Shown in pieces: positions 20,278 through 31,506 of a DNA stretch of 64,000 nucleotides; position 1 is the stretch's first letter; the number at the start of each line of letters is the position of its first letter. Source of the stretch: Oceanispirochaeta sp. (lineage in GTDB: Bacteria; Spirochaetota; Spirochaetia; DSM-2461). A model generated the notes under the pieces. It made no database searches. It was given only the letters and a program-made list of their open reading frames with translations, and was not told where the DNA came from. The position numbers and the translations under genes were made by a program. Location of the stretch: positions 992,001 through 1,056,000 of the forward strand of contig CAXXXD010000004.1 of assembly GCA_963663385.2 (NCBI GenBank), written 5' to 3'.

Positions 20278-20689
20278 GTCAGTCTCCCTTGTATTGTTAT
20301 TTTCATCTTCATTAAAAGGACGGTTAATTGATCTGTATGATGATTGAACTGAAGGGTAGGTGTCAAGGTAAAAAAGGCAGGGGAGACTATCCTCAGAGCC
20401 GTTTTCGGGTATCGGGAAGGAGCCGGATATCTGTAGTACCTGTCTTTCAGTCAGATGTAGTACTTTTTCAAAATAAATCTGTTTAAAGTTATGGAATTCC
20501 GGGTAATTGCTATTGTACTATCCCTTGCGGAACCTGTTCTGCAATTGTCCGCCATGTACAGGAAGGGTAGGATTAATAGTGCCTCAGCTGCCATTGCGCC
20601 CCTTCTGCTTGTGTTTATTGCGAATCTGGTTCCTATCTGTTTTATCCGGCGGTTCGGGCTGCTGGCTGCTCTTAACTGGCGGCTGGCGG

Positions 20690-21022
20690 ATTATATTGTC
20701 TGGCTATCAGATGATTTATTTCCTCCCGGGATAGTACATCCGGCAGTCGTTTTCTTTCCCTGATTCCGTTAAGTTTATATGGGCGCTCTTTTTTAAGGAC
20801 CAGTTTTTAGAACAGTTTTATGGCAGACCATGCCAGCCGTCGCTGTTCGCTGGTTTTCTGCTCTCTGTCGAGGAACTCTGCAATTCTTGCGTCCGGTTCC
20901 GGTTCCGTTTTTCTGTTGAAGCGAAGAAACTGATCCAGATACAGGCAATACTCCCGAATGGTATTGCGGGAATAACTCCTGTTTCTCATTTCCCTTCGGA
21001 AAATATCCAGATAATTCTGCAT
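20690..21022 (-). pseudogene. intI: Integron integrase remnant (N-terminal SAM-like domain only)
   Basis: MQNYLDIFRREMRNRSYSRNTIREYC...AWSAIKLF then a premature TAA, KLVLKK..., a frameshift, then KRLPDVLSREEI (20752-20717, IntI RLPxVLSxEE motif); no catalytic RHRY domain follows; divergent from an attC array. Confidence 0.8.
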
Positions 21023-21068
21023 AAATCACGTCCTTTTATCTGAAGAACAATGAATAATTATCCCCTGA

Positions 21069-21148: not shown

Positions 21149-21796
21149 ATGAAAGAAATAAATATACCAAAACTGTATAAACAATACTTTGTGGATAAAA
21201 ATGAGGAAAGAAAAGTTTTATTCGAGAAATTGAAGGATACGTACAAACCACAGAAAGGTATTTACCCAGGAAGTTTCGTGCATATCTCTCCTTCTTTTTA
21301 TATTCAAGAAATGCTTTATATCGATTCTGATAAGAGAATTACAAAATTTTTTGAAGATGAAAAAGTCTTAAAATATATAAACCTTAATAAAACTTATGAA
21401 GAAAAACCTAAAATTAAATCATTGCAAGCGGACTTTTCAATTAATTTACCAATTGATGAGAATTATTTCGATATTATGTTTTCCTTTTTTGCAGGTTTTA
21501 TATCACAATCCTGCAAAAAATATTTGAAAAATAATGGTATACTGGTGTGTAATAACAGTCATGGTGATGCGAGCATCGCTTATACTGACAAAGAATATGA
21601 ATTAGTTGCTGTAATAAAAAGAAATGGAAACAATTTCAGCATAAATGATAAAGATTTGGATGAGTATTTCATAAAAAAAGATGGAACCTCCATTGATACA
21701 GATAAAGTTCTAAGTAAGATGATAGGAGAAAATTTTACAAAAAAAGGGTATGCTTATGTGTTTAAATTTAACCGATACCCAAAAAACAACACATAA
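21149..21796 (+). CDS. Cassette 1: putative SAM-dependent methyltransferase-like protein
   Basis: GGAG RBS before ATG 21149; IYPGSFVH, FDIMFS, YLKNNGILV; stop codon inside R''. Confidence 0.6.
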   Translation: MKEINIPKLYKQYFVDKNEERKVLFEKLKDTYKPQKGIYPGSFVHISPSFYIQEMLYIDSDKRITKFFEDEKVLKYINLNKTYEEKPKIKSLQADFSINLPIDENYFDIMFSFFAGFISQSCKKYLKNNGILVCNNSHGDASIAYTDKEYELVAVIKRNGNNFSINDKDLDEYFIKKDGTSIDTDKVLSKMIGENFTKKGYAYVFKFNRYPKNNT

Positions 21797-21870
21797 CAGC
21801 TAATATGCGGTTCCGCTTTGCTTCACTCAAATCGCCTGCGGCGACTTCGCATATTCGCGGAACGTTATAG
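21791..21870 (+). repeat. attC site 1 (intact, 80 bp)
   Basis: ACATAAC-AGCT-AATATGCG ... CGCATATT-CGCGGAAC-GTTATAG. Confidence 0.88.
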
Positions 21871-21966
21871 GCAATAAGCGCCGGCAGAAATTGTTTCTTT
21901 TGTTGGAAGAACTCGCTATCCATGGCTCGTAATAACTTTAAAGTTATAAAGGAGTGTGATAATATA

Positions 21967-22620
21967 ATGAATATGACATTATCTATTATAGGATTCTTCG
22001 GTGGCCTTTTATGTGCTATAGCCGATATGTTATTGGATATCAAAGGTAAAGATAATCTAAAATGTGGTACTAAAAAAATCATGGACAGCAACTGGGTCAA
22101 AATGCCTTCGTGGCGTTTTATCACATCCATTATAATTGTAATGTTTGCAGTTCCGATGTATAGTATGGGAGTTCTCTCGTTAGCAAATCAAATTGCGCTA
22201 AATAATAAATCCCTCGGTGATTTACTTAAACTTTCAATTTTTATTGGAGCAATGGGAGGTTTTTTTATTCATACCCTTATTTGTATTGTTCCTATTATCT
22301 ACAAGGAAATTATGAAAGAAAATAATTTTGAGCTTGCAGATCGAGTAATTACCAATGTGTATAAAGCTGTTAAAATCCCATTTGTTGTACTGTATATTAT
22401 TTTAATATTGATACCTGCAATTATTGTAATTTTTTCAATTAATACAGGATTATTATATGTCCCTAAATGGTTCGTTCTTCTGAACCCGGTAACATTTCAA
22501 ATAATAGGATGGGTTCTTCGAGCAATAAAAAAGGATTGGTTTTATGAAGTTCCTTCTATTTTTATGGCTAGTCTTGGTTTAGCTATGTATGGAATTATTG
22601 GAATAGTTAATTTGATTTAG
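21967..22620 (+). CDS. Cassette 2: multi-pass membrane protein (DUF6796-like)
   Basis: AAGGAG RBS; about 6 hydrophobic helices; CAIADMLL N-terminal motif. Confidence 0.6.
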   Translation: MNMTLSIIGFFGGLLCAIADMLLDIKGKDNLKCGTKKIMDSNWVKMPSWRFITSIIIVMFAVPMYSMGVLSLANQIALNNKSLGDLLKLSIFIGAMGGFFIHTLICIVPIIYKEIMKENNFELADRVITNVYKAVKIPFVVLYIILILIPAIIVIFSINTGLLYVPKWFVLLNPVTFQIIGWVLRAIKKDWFYEVPSIFMASLGLAMYGIIGIVNLI

Positions 22621-22683
22621 GCTTATTAACTGAATAATATACTGTGGCCGTTTGCCATCCATGGCTAACTGCTTTTAAATAAT

Positions 22684-22777
22684 CTGGCACTTACTGCAAA
22701 TATATGTGGCGCCTTCGGCATAAGCTTCGCAACATTTTTGCTACGCAAAAAAGTCATATATTTGCAAAACACTAGAC
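22684..22777 (+). repeat. attC site 2, degenerate (R'' deleted, R' mutated)
   Basis: Perfect TGCAAATATATG/CATATATTTGCA inverted repeat (22695-22706 / 22755-22766); R' reads ACTAGAC; CTATAAC is missing. Confidence 0.65.
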
Positions 22778-22969
22778 GCCATTTTTTTACTAGGGAATAC
22801 AAAATGAAAAATACCAAAATACTATTAATCATATTTACAGGCATTTCATTATACTTAGTAGCTTTTAAATTCCTTCTAATGTTTCAGGATCGTTCTGCTA
22901 CTGCAAAGTAAGCGGTAATTCTCTCCATCTTGCGTGATTTCGAAATGATTATATACTCCATGAAAAATC

Positions 22970-23266
22970 ATGGAGGAACCTAATATGACCAACTGGAATT
23001 GGCCTGAATTAATCGAAGAACAAAAACAGAGCGGGAAAACAATTTCTGAGTTCTGCGCAGATAAAGGAGTTCACTATACATCTTTCTACAAGAATCGAAA
23101 AAAATTAAAGAAAAGCAGTTTTATTGAAATCAAACAGAAAGCCCCGGTATTACAGCCACAAAACCCCACAATGATACTCAGATACAAGGATTTCTCATTG
23201 GATCTGGCATCAGGTTATAACAGGCAATCCCTGATAGATCTTCTGAAGATTCTGAGAGAGTTGTAA
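22970..23266 (+). CDS. tnpA: IS66 TnpA (HTH accessory protein)
   Basis: WPELIEEQKQSGKTISEFCADKGVHYTSFY; position in the IS. Confidence 0.88.
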   Translation: MEEPNMTNWNWPELIEEQKQSGKTISEFCADKGVHYTSFYKNRKKLKKSSFIEIKQKAPVLQPQNPTMILRYKDFSLDLASGYNRQSLIDLLKILREL

Positions 23267-23610
23267 TGTTTGTTGACCTGAACGAATACCGGATCTTTCT
23301 GAGACCCGGCACGACAGACTTAAGAAAAGCGATCAACGGATTATCTCTGTTTATCCAGAATGAAATGAATCATGATTTATTCGCCAAATCGCTATTCCTC
23401 TTTTGTAACCGGCAGAGAAAACTTCTGAAAATTGTCTACTGGGATAATACCGGTTTTTGTCTCTGGCAGAAGAGACTGGAAGAGAACAGATATCCCTGGC
23501 CGGAAACAGATGAAGATGCTAAAGAGATCAGCATGGATGAATTGAAAATGCTCCTGACGGGAATAGACTTTTTCAAAGCGCATAAAAAATTATCATATTC
23601 CCGTATTTAG
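23266..23610 (+). CDS. tnpB: IS66 TnpB accessory protein
   Basis: DLRKAINGL, LFLFCNR, KIVYWD..GFCLWQKRLE. Confidence 0.95.
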   Translation: MFVDLNEYRIFLRPGTTDLRKAINGLSLFIQNEMNHDLFAKSLFLFCNRQRKLLKIVYWDNTGFCLWQKRLEENRYPWPETDEDAKEISMDELKMLLTGIDFFKAHKKLSYSRI

Positions 23611-23649
23611 AGATTTTATAATTATAGAAACTTTGATAGAATTCCCCGT

Positions 23650-25212
23650 ATGGAGAATGAAGAACAGCATTTAAGAGAACAACTTGATGCACAAAAAATA
23701 GAAATTGCTGAACTGAAAAGACTTAATGCCATTCTCCAGGAGCAAGTAGCAAAACTGAACCTCCTGCACTTTGGAACAAAATCAGAGAAGATAACTGCCG
23801 AAGATAAGAAACAAGCTTCTCTCTTCAATGAAGCGGAAGATAGTGCTTTTGCTCAGAATGATGAAGAGCAGGAGAAAAATGTTATTGAAACGGTTGAGGT
23901 CGGTTCCTACAAGAAAAATATTAAAAAATCCGGCCGGAAACCTCTGCCGGCAGATCTGCCGAGAGAGATCGTGGAATATGATATTCCGGATAAAGATAAG
24001 ATCTGTGCCTGCGGAACAGAAAAGACCTGTATCGGTGAAGATGTTTCCGAGAGAGCAAAAATTATTCCGTCAAAAGTCGTTGTTATTCAGGAACGTAGAA
24101 AAAAGTACTCCTGCAAGAATTGTGAAGGGACGACTCTTGATGAAGCTGCTGTACAGACCGCAGAAGGAGCAAAGCATCTGGTCGCGGGCAGTATTGCCGA
24201 TGAAAGCCTGCTCGCTTGGAGTATAAGCGAAAAGTTTGAGTTCGCTCTTCCTTTCTACAGGCAATCAAAACGGTTAAACCAGATAGGCATACCGATCCCC
24301 CGGGCGACATTGAGCAATCTTACGATAAAATCGGCAACGGCATGTAAGCCTCTATATGATTTGCTGAAAGAAAACATTAAATCCGGTTCCATTATTAATG
24401 CCGATGAGACGAGAGTTCAGGTTCTAAAGGAACCGAAACGAAAAGCTTCAGATAAATCATGGATGTGGGTCTTTCTCAGAGGAGATCCCGATAAAAAATG
24501 TGTCATATTTCAGTATGAGCAAGGCCGATCCCATGCAATTCCGTTGGATTTCTTGGAAAATTACTCTGGCTGGGTTCAAACTGATGATTTTGAGGCCTAC
24601 CATACTGCCCGAAAAAAAGTTGATGGAGATATAAAGCATGTCTTATGCTGGGCCCATGCCAGAAGAAAGTTCTTCCAATATTGGGAATCAACCAAGAAAA
24701 AAGATGCAGAAGCAAAGCAAATTCTCGACCTGATAAAGGATCTGTTTGAACTGGAATCATTACGGGATAATTATTCGCTAAAAGGGTTTCATAAACAGCG
24801 ACAAAATAGAGCAGAACCGATACTAGATAAGTTACAGAAAAAACTGACGAAGCTTTATCCTCAAGTACCTCCTTCTTTAGAGTTCGGTAAGGCGATGAAG
24901 TATACATTGAGCAACTGGGAGCAGTTGGTTCTATATCTGAAAAATCCTGTTTTGACTCCTTCGAACAATAGCGCTGAAAATGCAATCAGACCCTTCGTAA
25001 TCGGGAGAAAAAACTGGCTTTTTGCCGGAAGCCCGAAAGGTGCTGAATCATCGGCAATTCTGTACAGTCTCGTTGAATCTGCGAAGATGAACAATCTTCC
25101 AGTTTATGCTTACTTGTACTTTATCTTCCGGGAATTGCCCTGCTGTGAAAAACAGAGTGATTATGAAAAATTACTTCCCTATAATTTAACTGCTGAAGAT
25201 ATTGCAATCTGA
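23650..25212 (+). CDS. tnpC: IS66 DDE transposase TnpC
   Basis: FGTKSEK, zinc-finger Cys, ADET, QTDDF, CWAHARRKF, NNSAENAIRP..IGRKNWLF. Confidence 0.96.
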   Translation: MENEEQHLREQLDAQKIEIAELKRLNAILQEQVAKLNLLHFGTKSEKITAEDKKQASLFNEAEDSAFAQNDEEQEKNVIETVEVGSYKKNIKKSGRKPLPADLPREIVEYDIPDKDKICACGTEKTCIGEDVSERAKIIPSKVVVIQERRKKYSCKNCEGTTLDEAAVQTAEGAKHLVAGSIADESLLAWSISEKFEFALPFYRQSKRLNQIGIPIPRATLSNLTIKSATACKPLYDLLKENIKSGSIINADETRVQVLKEPKRKASDKSWMWVFLRGDPDKKCVIFQYEQGRSHAIPLDFLENYSGWVQTDDFEAYHTARKKVDGDIKHVLCWAHARRKFFQYWESTKKKDAEAKQILDLIKDLFELESLRDNYSLKGFHKQRQNRAEPILDKLQKKLTKLYPQVPPSLEFGKAMKYTLSNWEQLVLYLKNPVLTPSNNSAENAIRPFVIGRKNWLFAGSPKGAESSAILYSLVESAKMNNLPVYAYLYFIFRELPCCEKQSDYEKLLPYNLTAEDIAI

Positions 25213-25518
25213 TCCATCAGTCCTAAAATGCTGTCAATGTGGGAAGAATTACCGCTTACACTGCAAATCCCCCAGCAGTTTCTGTTTCAGCCAACTTAGT
25301 TGCATCGGCCCTGATTTTCATTTTTTTCTTCCTGGCTTCTATTCTTTTTTCCTTTAGTATTTTTACTTGTATTCAAATTTTAAAATTTAATATATTTCTT
25401 TTTATTGGCTATTCAATTTTGCTTTTCTTATCTGACTTCACTCTTGTCGGTATTTCATTTATAGCATTAGTAATTATATTAATTAGAGGCCTTTTACACT
25501 CAAAGCGTAAAAAACAGC

Positions 25519-25605
25519 GTATAAAAAAATATACGTTACGCTTTGCTTCACCCAAATTGGCCGATGGCTCTGTGGTTTGCTTCGTATATTCTCGAAACGT
25601 TAGGT
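25519..25605 (+). repeat. attC site 3 (R'' eroded)
   Basis: GTATAAA..AATATACG ... CGTATATT-CTCGAAAC-GTTAGGT. Confidence 0.78.
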
Positions 25606-25662
25606 GTAATGCTTGACAGAAAAAAAAATCAAAAATAATCTTAAATGAACGGAGGATAAATA

Positions 25663-26289
25663 ATGAAAATTAAGGTTCTAATAGTTATTTTTACAGTTAT
25701 TCTTTTGGCTGGGTGTGCAAGTGGTCCAAAATCACAGGCATACGTATATAAAGATCAATATTGGGATGAGCTTATTTCGCGAAATAAGGTAGTTCAATTA
25801 CTTGATACTCGGTTTGAAGTGGCTTCTCAAGTTGGAAATACACAAAAAGGAGCTCCTTTAGAAAACATTGAAAAAGATGAAATAACTCCTATTGTTGTTG
25901 AAATTCTTAAGAAACATGATTTTGAAGTAAATGTTGTTGGTGGAATCCAATTAGTAGACTCAAATTATACTAACTTTCCACAGGAAAGAATACCCGAAGA
26001 GTCAAGAGATAAATTCTTTGTCCAGGCGTCTTCAATTTACCTTGATAGAAGTTCAACAAATTCAAATTACCAATCTATTTTTAAACTTTACTATGTAACT
26101 CCCGAAGGCGATATTATAAAATTAGGTTTTGGATTGTCAGAACAAAGAGTAGAACATTATGATTCCCTTAATGCTGATGATTTAATTCAAATAAAACAGA
26201 ATGTAAGTACTTCAGATGGTTTCGAAACAATAGTTCTTTCTGTTGTTAAATCTTCTATAGAAACGTTTTTAACCAAAAAAGAGCTCTAA
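25663..26289 (+). CDS. Cassette 4: hypothetical lipoprotein
   Basis: GGAGG RBS; lipobox LLAGC; own promoter TTGACA(25613)-17-TAATCT. Confidence 0.75.
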   Translation: MKIKVLIVIFTVILLAGCASGPKSQAYVYKDQYWDELISRNKVVQLLDTRFEVASQVGNTQKGAPLENIEKDEITPIVVEILKKHDFEVNVVGGIQLVDSNYTNFPQERIPEESRDKFFVQASSIYLDRSSTNSNYQSIFKLYYVTPEGDIIKLGFGLSEQRVEHYDSLNADDLIQIKQNVSTSDGFETIVLSVVKSSIETFLTKKEL

Positions 26290-26304
26290 ACCCCAAAGCA
26301 TTAC

Positions 26305-26420
26305 ACCTACCAGCAAATATACGCTGCGGCTTCGCCTTGGCCTTCGGCAAATAAACCCTTTGAATATATTCAAGCCCTCAAGGGGCCGGGGTTACTTCGT
26401 ATATTCTCGGAATGTTTAGG
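26305..26420 (+). repeat. attC site 4 (116 bp)
   Basis: AAGCATTACACCTACC is complementary to the cassette start GTTAGGTGTAATGCTT; AATATACG...CGTATATT; R' GTTTAGG. Confidence 0.8.
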
Positions 26421-26487
26421 CAATAAGCACTTTAATTTTTAATAAAATAGAGAAAATGCCACCCCGGCGGCTCGTATTGGAGGTAAA

Positions 26488-26892
26488 ATGAAACATTTAG
26501 GTTCGTGTCTTTGCGGAAATATCAAATATGAAATAAGAGGGAATTTTGAGAACTTTTTTTTCTGTCACTGTAAATCTTGTCGTAAAGATACTGGGTCAGT
26601 TCATGCTTCAAATCTTTTTTCAACAACTGCAACATTAAAATGGTTGAAAGGAGAGGAAAAAGTAAAAATGTATAACCACAAAAATTCAGGCCACATAAAA
26701 AGCTTCTGTCCTAACTGTGGCTCTGCATTACCTAATATTCAAATGGATAGTAAACTACTTGTTGTTCCTGCAGGAAGTCTTGATACAGATATAGAAATGG
26801 TTCCTACTGGTCACATCTATTTAAAAGAGAAAGCGAATTGGGATCACAATCTTGAGATGATTCCACACTATGAGGATTTGCCAAAAGAATAA
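26488..26892 (+). CDS. Cassette 5: GFA (CENP-V/glutathione-dependent formaldehyde-activating) family protein
   Basis: GSCLCG, CHCKSCRK, FCPNCGS. Confidence 0.92.
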   Translation: MKHLGSCLCGNIKYEIRGNFENFFFCHCKSCRKDTGSVHASNLFSTTATLKWLKGEEKVKMYNHKNSGHIKSFCPNCGSALPNIQMDSKLLVVPAGSLDTDIEMVPTGHIYLKEKANWDHNLEMIPHYEDLPKE

Positions 26893-26975
26893 AATGTGTA
26901 GAAATCTGAATTTACCGGAAATCAGGCATCGTTCGCCGCCATCTGCACACATTTCAATATATCAGAGCTTAATGC

Positions 26976-27061
26976 CTATAACAGCGTTTTATATGCGGTG
27001 CCTGCGACGTGGGCTTCGTAACAGCCTATAGCAAACGTCATATAAACGCGGAACGTTATAG
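26976..27061 (+). repeat. attC site 5 (intact, 86 bp)
   Basis: CTATAAC-AGCGTTTTATATG ... CATATAAACGC-GGAAC-GTTATAG. Confidence 0.88.
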
Positions 27062-27134
27062 GCAATAAGCGGTTAGATTTTCTATAAGCAATAAGAATCC
27101 GCCATATATGGCGGATAAAAAAAATAAAAAAGTA

Positions 27135-27165
27135 TTGCAGTTGTCCCAACGTCAAGTTCTATACT
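27135..27165 (+). promoter_or_regulatory. MerR-type promoter with a 19-bp spacer
   Basis: TTGCAG-19 bp-TATACT with a TTG..CAA dyad in the spacer, upstream of a MerR gene. Confidence 0.6.
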
Positions 27166-27210
27166 CCAAAGTGATGATCATCAATAACTGTAAAAGAATG
27201 GATATTAACT

Positions 27211-28131
27211 ATGAATGATTCTGTATCAATAAACGAGATTTCTTCTCTGTTAGGAGTAACAAGCAGAACTATAAGGTTTTGGGAATCGGAAGGTCTTTTT
27301 GAATGTAAGAGACATCCATATTCAGGTCATAGGCTTGTTGAAAACACTATGGTAAATAAAGTTAAACTTTGTTCAGAACTGCGAAATATTGGAATTTCAA
27401 TAAAAGATATTAAACGGATTTTCGAATCGCAATCACTAGCTTCTGTAACAAAAGTTATTGAAGAAAACCTTGCATCAATAGATGCCGATTCTCAAATCTT
27501 TGAGAATCGAAAAGCAATGTTAATAATGCTTTTTAATATTCTCAAAACAGAAGAAAAGATCGCTGCAGGTTCTTTCATTGATTTTCATTCTTTTCTAATC
27601 AATTTACTTCAAGAAAATAACTTGAAGAAATCACAGGAGAAGAAAATGATAAATAGTGACCTGAAAAAAGTGTATGAAATAGTAGAGCTTCCAAAAATGA
27701 GAGTGGTTTATAATATTTCAGTTAGTAAAAGTCCTGAAGATGAAGCAATAGAACCGATACTGGAATGGATAAAAGAGAAAGGGCTTCTTGGTGTATCAAG
27801 ATTGTTTGGTGGAAATGTGAAACCATTTCCCAAGGATTCAAATAGTGAATATGGCTATGGGATGTGTGCGTCAATACCGGCAGATATTGATGTTCCAGAT
27901 CATTTGAAAGAGATGGAAATCCCGGGTGGTTTATATGCACTACTCCCTAGCGATGATGATATTGCTGATTCATGGAAAAAGTTTATGAAAAGTTTTAAGA
28001 AGGATAAGAAGTATTGCTCCGATAGATCTAGATTGTGTTTTGAAGAGCATATTTATTATGGAAGGCCTGGCGATAGTGGGTACTCCTTTAAAATAAATTT
28101 ATTAGAACCAATAAAAGATGTTAATCAGTAG
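27211..28131 (+). CDS. Cassette 6: MerR family regulator with GyrI-like effector domain
   Basis: SINEISSLLGVTSRTIRFWESEGL, GISIKDIK; C-terminal YGYGMC, IPGGLYA, CFEEH. Confidence 0.88.
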   Translation: MNDSVSINEISSLLGVTSRTIRFWESEGLFECKRHPYSGHRLVENTMVNKVKLCSELRNIGISIKDIKRIFESQSLASVTKVIEENLASIDADSQIFENRKAMLIMLFNILKTEEKIAAGSFIDFHSFLINLLQENNLKKSQEKKMINSDLKKVYEIVELPKMRVVYNISVSKSPEDEAIEPILEWIKEKGLLGVSRLFGGNVKPFPKDSNSEYGYGMCASIPADIDVPDHLKEMEIPGGLYALLPSDDDIADSWKKFMKSFKKDKKYCSDRSRLCFEEHIYYGRPGDSGYSFKINLLEPIKDVNQ

Positions 28132-28203
28132 ATAATATCTTTAGCAGAGAGGCCGTTCGCCATCCTTGGCTCACTACTTGTTATTCAACGCAGCGCTTAC
28201 TAC

Positions 28204-28293
28204 CTATAACAGAGTTTACAAGGTTGGGCCTACGGCCTCTCCCAAATTGTCTTGCTGAGCAAGACAACTTTCTGTAAAATCAAAACGTTAAGT
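28204..28293 (+). repeat. attC site 6 (90 bp)
   Basis: CTATAAC-AGAG-TTTACA ... TTGTCTTGCT/AGCAAGACAA hairpin ... TGTAAA-ATCAAAAC-GTTAAGT. Confidence 0.82.
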
Positions 28294-28378: not shown

Positions 28379-29227
28379 ATGAAAAAAGCAGTAAAATATT
28401 TCACTATTTGTATGGTATTAGTATTTACCATTTCAAGTTGCTCCAGAAAAGATGAAAAACTGTCTGTATTTCAATTAACCGGGGAATTAAGAATTACTGA
28501 GATTGAAAGCAATATATTTTTAGTTACGCACAGCTTTCCCTGGCCGGGTAATTCTTTGATGATTGTTATGGATAAAAAGAATATTCTCTGGATCGATACA
28601 CCATATACACCGGAGGCCACTGCTTTAGTATTGAACTGGATTGAAGAAAAGTATGGAAAAGGGTATTCAATTACAGAAATCAATACAGGGTTTCATATTG
28701 ACAATTTGGGTGGCAATCAAGAATTAGTAAAAAGAAATATACCAATATATGGCTCTAATTTGACGTGCGAGCTTCTTGGAACAAGAAGCAAAAACACGAT
28801 GCTGAATATGATGAATTGGCTAAAAGGGGAAAAATACGAAGATTACAGAAACGTGTATTCTGATTTTACATTTTACAGCCCTACTATTACTTTTAACATT
28901 CATGATGAACAAACAATTGTTTTTGGATCAAATGAAGTGATTATATATTATCCTGGACCAACACATACGTATGACAATCTGGTTGTCTATATACCAAGTC
29001 AAAAAATTCTTTTTGGAGGATGTATGATACTGTCCACCGATGCCGATAAAGTTGGTTATATTGAAGATGGGAACTTGGAAGAATGGGCAAATTCACTCAC
29101 AAAATTAGAAAATCGTTTTGATAATATAAGAGTCATTGTTCCTGGTCATGGAAATCCAGGAGACTCTACGCTAATAGCTCATACAAAAGACATCGTTAAT
29201 GCTTCTGGAGAAACGACAGAAGAATGA
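28379..29227 (+). CDS. Cassette 7: subclass B1 metallo-beta-lactamase, SPS-1/SPM-1-like, lipoprotein
   Basis: IDTPYTPEAT, INTGFHIDNLGGN, YPGPTHTYDNLVVY, LFGGCMI, GNLEEW, VPGHG; lipobox ISSC. Confidence 0.88.
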   Translation: MKKAVKYFTICMVLVFTISSCSRKDEKLSVFQLTGELRITEIESNIFLVTHSFPWPGNSLMIVMDKKNILWIDTPYTPEATALVLNWIEEKYGKGYSITEINTGFHIDNLGGNQELVKRNIPIYGSNLTCELLGTRSKNTMLNMMNWLKGEKYEDYRNVYSDFTFYSPTITFNIHDEQTIVFGSNEVIIYYPGPTHTYDNLVVYIPSQKILFGGCMILSTDADKVGYIEDGNLEEWANSLTKLENRFDNIRVIVPGHGNPGDSTLIAHTKDIVNASGETTEE

Positions 29228-31199: not shown

Positions 31200-31506
31200 G
31201 GCTGTAAAAAGATAACCGCCGCATATTTTCTGAGCCGTTAAATTAAATCCATTATTTTAGGGAAATAAAAATGTTAAAAGAATTCATAGGAAAATCTGTT
31301 CATATATAGTGGTATCTACTCTTATTTAACCAACCCGGAGAAAGTTGTCATGATTGATGTTGATGAGAGCTGGTTAAAGCTCGAAAGTCGAAGCAAAATA
31401 ATACTGCCGGATGTAAATAAAATCAGCAAGGTTAAAACGAATAAATGATGTATTTTATATATTGTTGAAATGTTATAGGCAATGATTCAGCTGGAGAAAA
31501 ACGTAC

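What the first reader, a model, noticed from the sequence alone, without database searches (positions are those of the whole stretch)
21864..28210. Shared non-coding cassette 'chassis' with paired GCCATCCATGGC motifs around unrelated genes
Seen: cassettes 2, 5 and 6 carry unrelated ORFs but begin GTT(A)TAGGCAATAAGC and end in variants of GCTTAnTGCCTATAAC (R'' deleted in cassette 2). The VOC cassette shares the start only. About 45-50 nt inside the 5' end lies a GCCATCCATGGC-like palindrome (21915, 27101, degenerate 26458). A second direct copy in the context GGCCGTTYGCCATCCWTGGCTMACT lies about 35-45 nt before R'' (22654, 28159, degenerate ~26931). Ordinary attC biology does not explain this. 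Established: how new cassettes are made is unresolved, and short REP-like palindromes are substrates of HUH (RAYT/IS200-type) enzymes. Inference: a reusable cassette frame whose cargo is exchanged or captured between two internal REP-like sites by a second system, or conserved RNA-processing elements.
Basis: partly seen in the sequence, partly recalled or inferred. Interest (0 to 1): 0.8.

Follow-up and report, generated by a model that had tools for sequence, protein, structure and literature searches.

The report
Hairpin frame around spirochaete gene cassettes
Many mobile gene cassettes of free-living spirochaetes carry unrelated genes inside the same non-coding frame, a long terminal stem plus two small hairpins that fold around the recombination site when the cassette is a circle, which gives a concrete handle on the open question of how new cassettes are made.

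Summary
In 126 distinct cassettes from 14 Spirochaetia genomes, a hairpin lies 34-50 nt inside the 5' end and a second one 38-60 nt before the end of R''. The two go together across the cargo (34 both, 8 one, 84 neither), not across attC in the array. Stems co-vary. The loop is fixed as C-ANGGAN-G on the attC bottom strand, which is the Csr/Rsm consensus. Cassette termini pair for about 20 nt (9-11 in print), cassette-specifically, usually with a G·T at position 11. In the circle this folds as hairpin, extended attC, hairpin: the layout of the TD-2 repeat (Rfam), although no array reached TD-2's cut-off. Near-identical frames hold unrelated genes, and identity ends just inside the hairpins. 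A second frame family exists. The 'chassis' is supported; RAYT involvement is not. Best reading: an accessory frame of attC that stabilises the circular form and is re-used when cargo is replaced. Function is untested. The scan noted this frame before in other spirochaetes (e1-6741725, e1-7611329). Verdict: new variant of a known kind; interest 0.6.

The parts
20672..21025 (-). Truncated, frameshifted integrase remnant at the head of the array
   Evidence: 72-aa frame 20807-21025 hits Phage_int_SAM_4; a short second frame 20672-20806 follows. A full-length integron integrase lies elsewhere, G000:C2:1688005-1688940.
21794..21866 (+). attC of cassette 1 (AAC to GTT)
   Evidence: sequence; attC scan
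21864..21883 (+). Cassette 2, 5' terminal arm (R' plus extension)
   Evidence: same start as a G071 cassette
21911..21930 (-). Cassette 2, 5' hairpin; bottom-strand loop AUGGAU, one stem mismatch, tandem GA pair
21967..22620 (+). Cargo: DUF6796 membrane protein
   Evidence: Pfam PF20599
22646..22670 (-). Cassette 2, 3' hairpin (GCCATCCATGGC at 22654)
22686..22697 (+). Cassette 2, remnant of 3' arm; R'' deleted
   Evidence: alignment with cassette 6
22902..25265 (+). IS66 inserted in cassette 3 (not part of the frame)
   Evidence: terminal inverted repeat I3; Pfam
26414..26430 (+). Cassette 5, 5' arm (one base deleted in R')
26458..26471 (-). Cassette 5, degenerate 5' hairpin
26488..26892 (+). 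Cargo: GFA-family protein
   Evidence: PF04828
26930..26949 (-). Cassette 5, degenerate 3' hairpin
   Evidence: alignment with cassette 6
26967..26982 (+). Cassette 5, 3' arm and R''
26983..27054 (+). attC core of cassette 5
   Evidence: attC scan, score 9.8
27055..27073 (+). Cassette 6, 5' arm; pairs with its own 3' arm at 15 of 18 positions
27097..27116 (-). Cassette 6, 5' hairpin; 8-bp stem, loop has lost the GGA
27211..28131 (+). Cargo: MerR plus GyrI-like/Cass2 regulator
28151..28175 (-). Cassette 6, 3' hairpin (GCCATCCTTGGC at 28159); bottom-strand loop AAGGAU, tandem GA pair
28193..28210 (+). Cassette 6, 3' arm and R''
28211..28289 (+). attC core of cassette 6 up to the next GTT (28287)
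31472..31483 (+). VOC cassette start; shares the first 12 nt only, no hairpin

Best explanation
A lineage of Spirochaetia integron cassettes carries an accessory non-coding frame around attC. SHOWN: (1) each cassette's two ends pair for about 20 nt, cassette-specifically, usually with a bottom-strand G·T at position 11; (2) about 30% also carry one ANGGAN-loop hairpin inside each end (family A) and about 20-25% a GGA-triloop pair (family B), and A and B were never mixed; (3) the pair belongs to the cassette unit; (4) polarity follows the attC bottom strand, not the gene; (5) near-identical frames surround unrelated genes. INFERRED: (6) in the excised single-stranded circle the arms extend the attC stem by about 13 bp, so the circle folds better than the same attC in the array, which would favour integration over excision; (7) the family A hairpins descend from the TD-2 repeat, with attC in place of its central palindrome, and are read by a Csr/Rsm-type GGA-binding protein on bottom-strand nucleic acid; (8) new cassettes in this lineage arise by replacing the cargo between the two hairpins of an existing cassette, the frame serving as template or homology arms. 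The enzyme for step 8 is not identified. Confidence is about 0.9 for steps 1-5 and about 0.45 for the whole.
For: A5/A3 co-occurrence 34/3/5/84 in 126 cassettes; within-genome permutation mean 14.7, maximum 24 in 10,000; no link across attC in arrays, 12/26/30/86, p=0.53. Terminal positions 8-18 pair 7.9 of 11 within a cassette against 4.1 between cassettes of one genome. Position 11 is top A·C in 93 of 126. 35 control cassettes from four other spirochaete genomes pair only to about position 8 and have no hairpin. Hairpins picked by loop alone still pair own against cross, 0.74-1.0 against 0.24-0.64 at the 3' end. Tandem GA·GA on the bottom strand in 23 of 76 stems, 0 on top. Circle junction -38.0 against array junction -27.6 kcal/mol, lower in 84 of 93; bottom strand more stable than top in 90 of 93. 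Triloops are mixed in attC cores (GAA 69, GCA 43, GTA 16, GGA 16) but GGA in 45 of 46 in B frames. An ANGGAX hexaloop on a stem is the high-affinity Csr/RsmE site (PMC4005645); CsrA is present in 5 of 5 genomes. TD-2 read backwards has the same two hairpin types in the same order. In three IMG/VR records the same 5' hairpin follows an R' site, two hold complete two-hairpin cassettes, and the genes lie on the bottom strand.
Against: No functional data. CsrA is known as an RNA-binding protein, and in the chromosomal arrays the site is antisense to the mRNA; a bottom-strand promoter consensus was found in only 6 of 99 attC cores, and promoter-like cores showed no link to the 3' hairpin (p=0.33). 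CsrA was found in every genome tested, and genomes without the frame were not tested, so its presence says little. Two thirds of cassettes have no family A hairpin. attC cores are not co-inherited with near-identical frames (6 of 24 same-genome pairs share a core at 90%, 0 of 16 in G246), which cargo replacement alone does not explain. No array locus reached the TD-2 or TwoAYGGAY cut-off. The sharp identity boundary is also what passive recombination in conserved hairpins would leave. The folding advantage of the circle follows from the arms by construction. The B-loop count is biased by the pattern used to call family B. Genomes and cassettes are related, so p-values overstate.
Confidence: 0.45

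Rival explanations
1. Cassette genesis by a mobile TD-2-type module. A module (3'-type hairpin, arm, attC, arm, 5'-type hairpin) inserts at gene boundaries; two copies around a gene, or a gene entering a module circle, give a new cassette that IntI then moves.
For: In family f2 genomes stand-alone TD-2 copies sit just before an RBS and start codon in 7 of 7 loci, and just behind a stop codon in most, in cassette polarity (read by eye); some form tandem runs. In cassettes the 3' hairpin often lies 7-29 nt behind the stop and the RBS directly follows the 5' hairpin. TwoAYGGAY elements are described as expanding like mobile elements (preprint 10.64898/2026.09.22.753630).
Against: No stand-alone module with an attC centre was seen (0 of 16 TD-2 copies have AAC...GTT cores). 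Arms and cores are not co-inherited. TD-2 was not found in f1 (0/5), f10 (0/6) or f16 (0/6), where frames are common, and G507 has 81 TD-2 matches but a frameless array. In G507 orientation to neighbouring genes is mixed. No mobilising enzyme is known.
Confidence: 0.2
2. Passive mosaicism plus expression signals. The hairpins are terminators or RNA-stability elements of cassette genes; shared frames come from host recombination between cassettes and have no role in recombination or genesis.
For: The hairpins bracket the ORF closely. The terminator scan flags two 5' hairpins of the window on the minus strand. Many 3' hairpins have A-tract/T-tract stems. An earlier scan note reached a mosaic reading for a phage array (e1-6102771, not tested on its data).
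Against: A T-rich tail follows only 13 of 37 5' hairpins (bottom) and 9 of 39 3' hairpins (top). Terminators do not need a fixed ANGGAN loop. Polarity follows attC even where genes are reversed. It does not explain cassette-specific co-variation of arms 0.4-2.9 kb apart, or concerted sharing of both ends.
Confidence: 0.2
4. One reading: a RAYT/IS200-type HUH enzyme cuts at the two REP-like hairpins and exchanges cargo.
For: Bottom-strand hairpins with tandem GA pairs suit single-stranded DNA; Y1_Tnp genes occur in 4 of 5 genomes.
Against: None in G071 (98% complete, many frames). The own genome's five copies are flanked by another repeat, GGGGACGGAGG. Stems vary freely while the loop is fixed. 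No conserved cleavage dinucleotide was evident at the boundaries (by eye).
Confidence: 0.07

Closest known systems
attC sites and cassettes of sedentary chromosomal integrons and CALINs (PMC2727003, PMC5371416, PMC5027507; passages read)
   Same: AAC...GTT boxes, bottom-strand folding with G·T bias, cassette arrays, host-typical sites.
   Different: Terminal pairing runs to about 20 nt with a fixed wobble (print: 9-11 nt). Two conserved hairpins lie inside the cassette ends. Frames are re-used around unrelated genes. Cores are decoupled from frames.
TD-2 / TD-1 motifs (Rfam RF03162, RF03155; Weinberg 2007, PMC1950547; table, TD section and supplement search read)
   Same: Two ANGGAN hairpins, one GC-stem type and one A/T-tract type, in the same order around a central hairpin; spirochaete range.
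   Different: Here the centre is an arm-extended attC and the unit is cognate only in the circle. No array reached the Rfam cut-off. The paper does not mention integrons or attC, nor do the supplements searched mention integrons.
TwoAYGGAY RNA (RF01731; PMC2864571 table row; preprint 10.64898/2026.09.22.753630, abstract and passages)
   Same: Paired AYGGAY loops; proposed Csr/Rsm binding; mobile-like spread.
   Different: No match over cut-off in 5 genomes; the preprint's main text has 0 occurrences of integron or attC.
Csr/Rsm binding sites (PMC4005645, passages)
   Same: ANGGAX hexaloop directly on a stem, plus the AGGAX pentaloop variant.
   Different: Antisense to the cargo gene in chromosomal arrays; binding untested; may act on DNA.
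REP/RAYT elements (recalled)
   Same: Short non-coding hairpins at gene boundaries.
   Different: No associated RAYT; fixed loop with variable stem.
DUF1874 motif (PMC5737381, passage)
   Same: Proposed multi-stem ssDNA structure between cassette-like genes.
   Different: A different motif; no Rfam hit here.

Membership tests
Integron attC cassette | R''(AAC)-L''...L'-R'(GTT) hairpin between genes | tested here: met
   folds
Integron attC cassette | Self-complementary R box at the two ends of one cassette | tested here: met
   126 of 143 distinct cassettes pair at 6 or more of 7
Integron attC cassette | Integron integrase available | tested here: met
   remnant beside the array; full-length TIGR02249 hit elsewhere in G000; over cut-off in 4 of 5 relatives
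Integron attC cassette | IntI-mediated recombination of the sites | not testable with these tools
   needs an assay
TD-2 (RF03162) | Covariance-model score at or above the gathering cut-off | tested here: not met
   0 hits in 7 array loci, none in the window, none in G000; the attC centre does not fit the model
TD-2 (RF03162) | Two ANGGAN hairpins of the two stem types in fixed order around a central hairpin | tested here: met
   consensus
TD-2 (RF03162) | Dispersed multi-copy intergenic distribution | tested here: not met
   32 of 40 matches at cassettes in five genomes
TwoAYGGAY (RF01731) | Two sequential AYGGAY hairpins on one basal stem, score over cut-off | tested here: not met
   0 of 5 genomes over cut-off
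Csr/Rsm binding site | ANGGAX loop on a stem | tested here: met
   43 of 109 hexaloop hairpins in the flanks are C-ANGGAN-G; PMC4005645
Csr/Rsm binding site | Present in an RNA | tested here: inconclusive
   no RNA holder listed; bottom-strand promoter consensus in 6 of 99 cores
Csr/Rsm binding site | Bound by CsrA | not testable with these tools
   needs a binding assay
REP/RAYT | Cognate RAYT gene flanked by the same palindrome | tested here: not met
   own genome's five genes carry another repeat; none in G071; flanks in G246, G077, G234 not examined
Intrinsic terminator | GC-rich stem followed by a U-tract | tested here: inconclusive
   minority only: 1 to 14 of 37-39 per end and strand

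The most novel reading that the evidence does not exclude
The frame is the footprint of the cassette-building machine. A TD-2-type, GGA-hairpin-bearing mobile module that seeks gene boundaries has taken attC as its central hairpin and loads genes between its two hairpins; cassette-specific 20-bp arms then act as a ratchet that makes the circle a better IntI substrate than the array site. Cassette bodies and attC cores would be separately exchangeable parts, and a Csr/Rsm-type protein would take part in cassette formation or recombination.
Probability: 0.2. Interest if true: 0.9.

Novelty: new variant of a known kind. Interest (0 to 1): 0.6.

Why it matters
De novo cassette formation is described as largely unknown (PMC5371416). 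Here recent-looking events are visible: frames 92-99% identical at both ends around unrelated genes, with boundaries mapped to a few bases. That makes the question testable with defined substrates. It also widens the functional attC by about 60 nt on each side, suggests a circle-versus-array ratchet, and gives the orphan TD-2 motif a possible role. Spirochaete-type attC sites were predicted for six clinical aminoglycoside-resistance cassettes (PMC8352920), so cassette formation in this group bears on the origin of resistance cassettes.

Tried and rejected
Exact 24-mer scan of genome contigs: 0. A looser scan gave 18 loci, mostly non-integron repeats in other phyla. Metagenome scan: 2 loci, not examined. 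Rfam on the window and arrays: nothing relevant. R'+hairpin pattern outside Spirochaetia: 14 matches against 11 control in 201 genomes of the phylum of L035, 0 of 14 with attC or terminal repeat; 7 against 8 in 251 genomes of the phylum of L042, loci not examined. So not found in those searched, with a pattern tuned to spirochaetes. IMG/VR: 3 convincing of 80 matches; a 3' pattern gave 19 loci, 2 convincing, both in records already found; no integron integrase or CsrA in the three records, two of them fragments. BLAST of junctions against plasmids and phages: no match. No RNA holder listed. Contigs of four runs showed other cassette starts joined at the window's attC sites but no joint at a hairpin; uninformative. 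RAYT link rejected. Antisense promoter link not found. RNA folding energy does not separate the strands for the small hairpins. A suspected same-frame pair in G015 shared interior sequence and was excluded. The window folds and four of the six pairing lines used shifted or decayed ends and are not used. Literature searches found no paper linking AYGGAY/TD-2 hairpins or 20-nt arms to cassettes. The library lacks most subscription papers. Conserved flanks of Pseudomonas PAR cassettes are recalled only (one search returned nothing). The preprint's supplements were not seen; supplement 5 of PMC1950547 was not searched and supplement 1 is cut.
Full report
Setting. The region is a cassette array headed by a truncated integrase, interrupted by IS66, with several decayed attC sites. 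The genome has a full-length integron integrase on another contig. That the organism is a spirochaete of class Spirochaetia is inferred from kin-related records and attC types.

Observation. All listed motifs are at the stated places. The exact 12-mer occurs twice in 5.3 Mb, both in this array. To go beyond three cassettes I searched relatives. A pattern joining an attC R' site to the hairpin 28-58 nt downstream gave 32 matches in 19 of 331 Spirochaetia genomes against 4 for the reversed pattern; two matches look like chance. From the fetched regions I called 160 attC sites with my own pairing score. The hairpin was in 41 of 138 distinct 5' ends (39 within 34-50 nt) and 35 of 135 distinct 3' ends (33 within 38-60 nt), never on the other strand, shuffle means below 0.2. 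The loci were chosen with motif patterns, so these fractions are upper estimates; 20 of 83 3' ends carry the hairpin in loci chosen by the 5' pattern alone.

What is conserved. The stem varies and stays paired; the loop does not vary. Picked by loop alone, 3' stems pair at 0.74-1.0 per position against 0.24-0.64 for swapped arms, with up to four pair types per position. On the attC bottom strand the loop reads C-A-N-GGA-N-G: 43 of 109 hexaloop hairpins in the flanks. 23 of 76 stems contain opposed GA/GA on the bottom strand and none on the top; that these form sheared pairs is recalled knowledge. The 5' type has a short GC stem, the 3' type mostly a long A/T-tract stem. A second frame family (B) has other stems, with GGA triloops in 45 of 46 counted, whereas attC cores use mixed GNA loops (family B was called with a pattern containing the loop, so this is partly circular).

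The frame belongs to the cassette. Of 158 complete cassettes, 143 were distinct and 126 with a self-complementary R box were kept (17 dropped), from 14 genomes. Both A hairpins 34, 5' only 3, 3' only 5, neither 84; both B 27, 5' only 8, 3' only 1; A and B never mixed. Within-genome permutation gives a mean of 14.7 and a maximum of 24. Across an attC in the array the two hairpins are unlinked (p=0.53). Independently of hairpins, termini pair to about position 20 with a break at 11, which is A·C on top, hence G·T on the bottom, in 93 of 126. Own ends pair 7.9 of 11 beyond the R box, foreign ends 4.1. In 35 control cassettes from G507, G534, G540 and G117 pairing stops near position 8 and no hairpin occurs. 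Print gives 9-11 nt (PMC2727003). Modelled circle junctions fold as hairpin, extended attC, hairpin in most of the 11 examples printed, on average 10 kcal/mol below the array junction.

Re-use. 32 two-hairpin cassettes fall into 30 protein clusters. 35 pairs with no BLAST similarity inside share at least 19 of 22 bases at both termini; 29 are family B, 2 A/A, 4 A with unclassified. The pairs are not independent: one G246 family gives most of them. In the best pairs about 60 nt at each end are 92-98% identical, and identity ends 0-9 nt inside the hairpins. A G071 pair with the window's own start sequence shares 98% of its last 60 bases around unrelated genes. Against a simple model, attC cores do not follow the frame: 6 of 24 same-genome pairs share a core, four of them ORF-less duplicates, and 0 of 16 in G246. 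This needs exchange at R''. Top-strand recombination, reported at 1,000-10,000-fold lower frequency (PMC5027507), is one candidate (inference).

Polarity. Three IMG/VR records have the same 5' hairpin behind an R' site; two hold complete two-hairpin cassettes with long arms, and in all seven cassettes called in these records the longest ORF is on the bottom strand. The motif therefore follows attC, not the gene. None of the three has an integron integrase or CsrA hit.

Relation to known motifs. A weak TwoAYGGAY search led to TD-2. Read backwards, TD-2 is 3'-type hairpin, central palindrome, 5'-type hairpin, the order of the circular junction. TD-2 is dispersed: 81 matches in G507, none listed inside its array loci; 7 of 121 genomes, families f2 and f31 only. 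In f2 genomes it sits just before an RBS and mostly just behind a stop codon, sometimes in tandem (by eye); in G507 orientation is mixed. Frames do not reach the TD-2 cut-off and occur in genomes without TD-2 hits. In five such or TD-2-poor genomes, 32 of 40 pattern matches lie in array loci or at cassette starts. So the frame works like, and probably descends from, TD-2, but is not a member by the Rfam test. The loop equals the high-affinity Csr/RsmE site (PMC4005645) and CsrA is encoded in 5 of 5 genomes, but nothing shows an RNA. RAYT is not supported.

Mechanism. I favour an accessory attC frame: arms that stabilise the circle, TD-2-derived GGA hairpins, and cargo replacement between them (0.45). 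Rivals are genesis by a mobile module (0.2), passive mosaicism with expression signals (0.2), chance neighbourhood of a dispersed repeat (0.08) and HUH exchange (0.07). The anatomy is shown; all function is inferred.

Papers. Passages only were read for PMC4909258, PMC3607928, PMC2864571, PMC1950547 (plus a supplement search), PMC8946536, PMC2727003, PMC5371416, PMC5027507, PMC4005645, PMC8352920, PMC5737381 and the preprint 10.64898/2026.09.22.753630 (also outline and abstract). Ten searches found no description of this frame; subscription papers are mostly missing.

Earlier notes. The scan recorded the frame before in other spirochaetes. I had reached TD-2 on my own before seeing them. My data agree with e1-6741725 and with the TD-2 kinship in e1-7611329, but contradict the latter's 'not special to cassettes' for the genomes tested here. 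e1-6102771 supplied the mosaic rival.

Verdict. Real, lineage-wide, not found in the literature searched; a new variant of the attC cassette. Interest 0.6; 0.9 if the frame proves to be the cassette-building substrate (probability about 0.2).

Noticed in passing
G000:C2:about 1,652,000-1,689,000 (own genome, outside the window): Second integron with a full-length integrase. A group II intron is inserted just behind the TAA of the R'' box in most junctions; 8 copies of its 5' end genome-wide and 9 of its 3' end in this region. It looks like a group IIC-attC intron burst (class name recalled).
   Followed up: partly
window 28379-29227: Cassette gene for a metallo-beta-lactamase-like protein; best PDB match 6cqs, E 1e-59.
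   Followed up: partly
L002:1555-1810; L005:1555-1810; L010, L057, L122: attC sites of about 250 nt that hold a second complete attC (ATACAAC...GTTGTAT) and a TATAAT box inside their terminal region.
   Followed up: no
attC cores in L006, L057, L117, L122, L123; window 26310-26413: A class of 130-137-nt attC cores carries a palindromic promoter-like segment, TTGACA...TATGAT on top and TTGATA-16-TATCAT on the bottom. The window's copy lacks 25 letters that contigs of two runs have at 26371.
   Followed up: partly
L051, L053, L056, L116, L118, L128: Frame family B (5' CCCGGACCTCCGGCC hairpin, 3' three-way hairpin) gives the clearest same-frame, different-cargo pairs.
   Followed up: yes
L051, L052, L128: Two alternating families of ORF-less cassettes of about 400 bp, repeated many times in one array, with weaker terminal pairing.
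   Followed up: no
L186, L194, L232 (L259-L261): IMG/VR records with spirochaete-like attC arrays, no integrase hit, genes on the bottom strand, some ORFs running through attC.
   Followed up: partly
G234, G077, G071, G015: The arrays studied lie hundreds of kb from, or on another contig than, the integron integrase gene.
   Followed up: no
L013, L014, L015, L025: tRNA-linked repeats with a T-arm-like GTTCGA(T/A)TCC that contain the same 3'-type hairpin.
   Followed up: no
L281, L287; G000:C3:1005656-1005710, C3:1518235-1518290, C4:677734-678090: Clusters of several ANGGAN/AGGAN hairpins outside integrons; candidates for Csr-type sponge RNAs or repeats.
   Followed up: no
G000:C2:636477, C2:486153, C2:1217534, C4:803924, C4:603892: Five Y1_Tnp (RAYT-like) genes flanked by inverted GGGGACGGAGG repeats.
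   Followed up: partly
L036, L040: Tandem run of an 11-nt unit directly before the 3' hairpin of a triplicated cassette.
   Followed up: no
L033 / L132: A record titled Clostridiaceae has an R'-like GTTAGAT, the hairpin, then a HicAB-like pair (family recognised by eye); no attC or terminal repeat was confirmed.
   Followed up: partly
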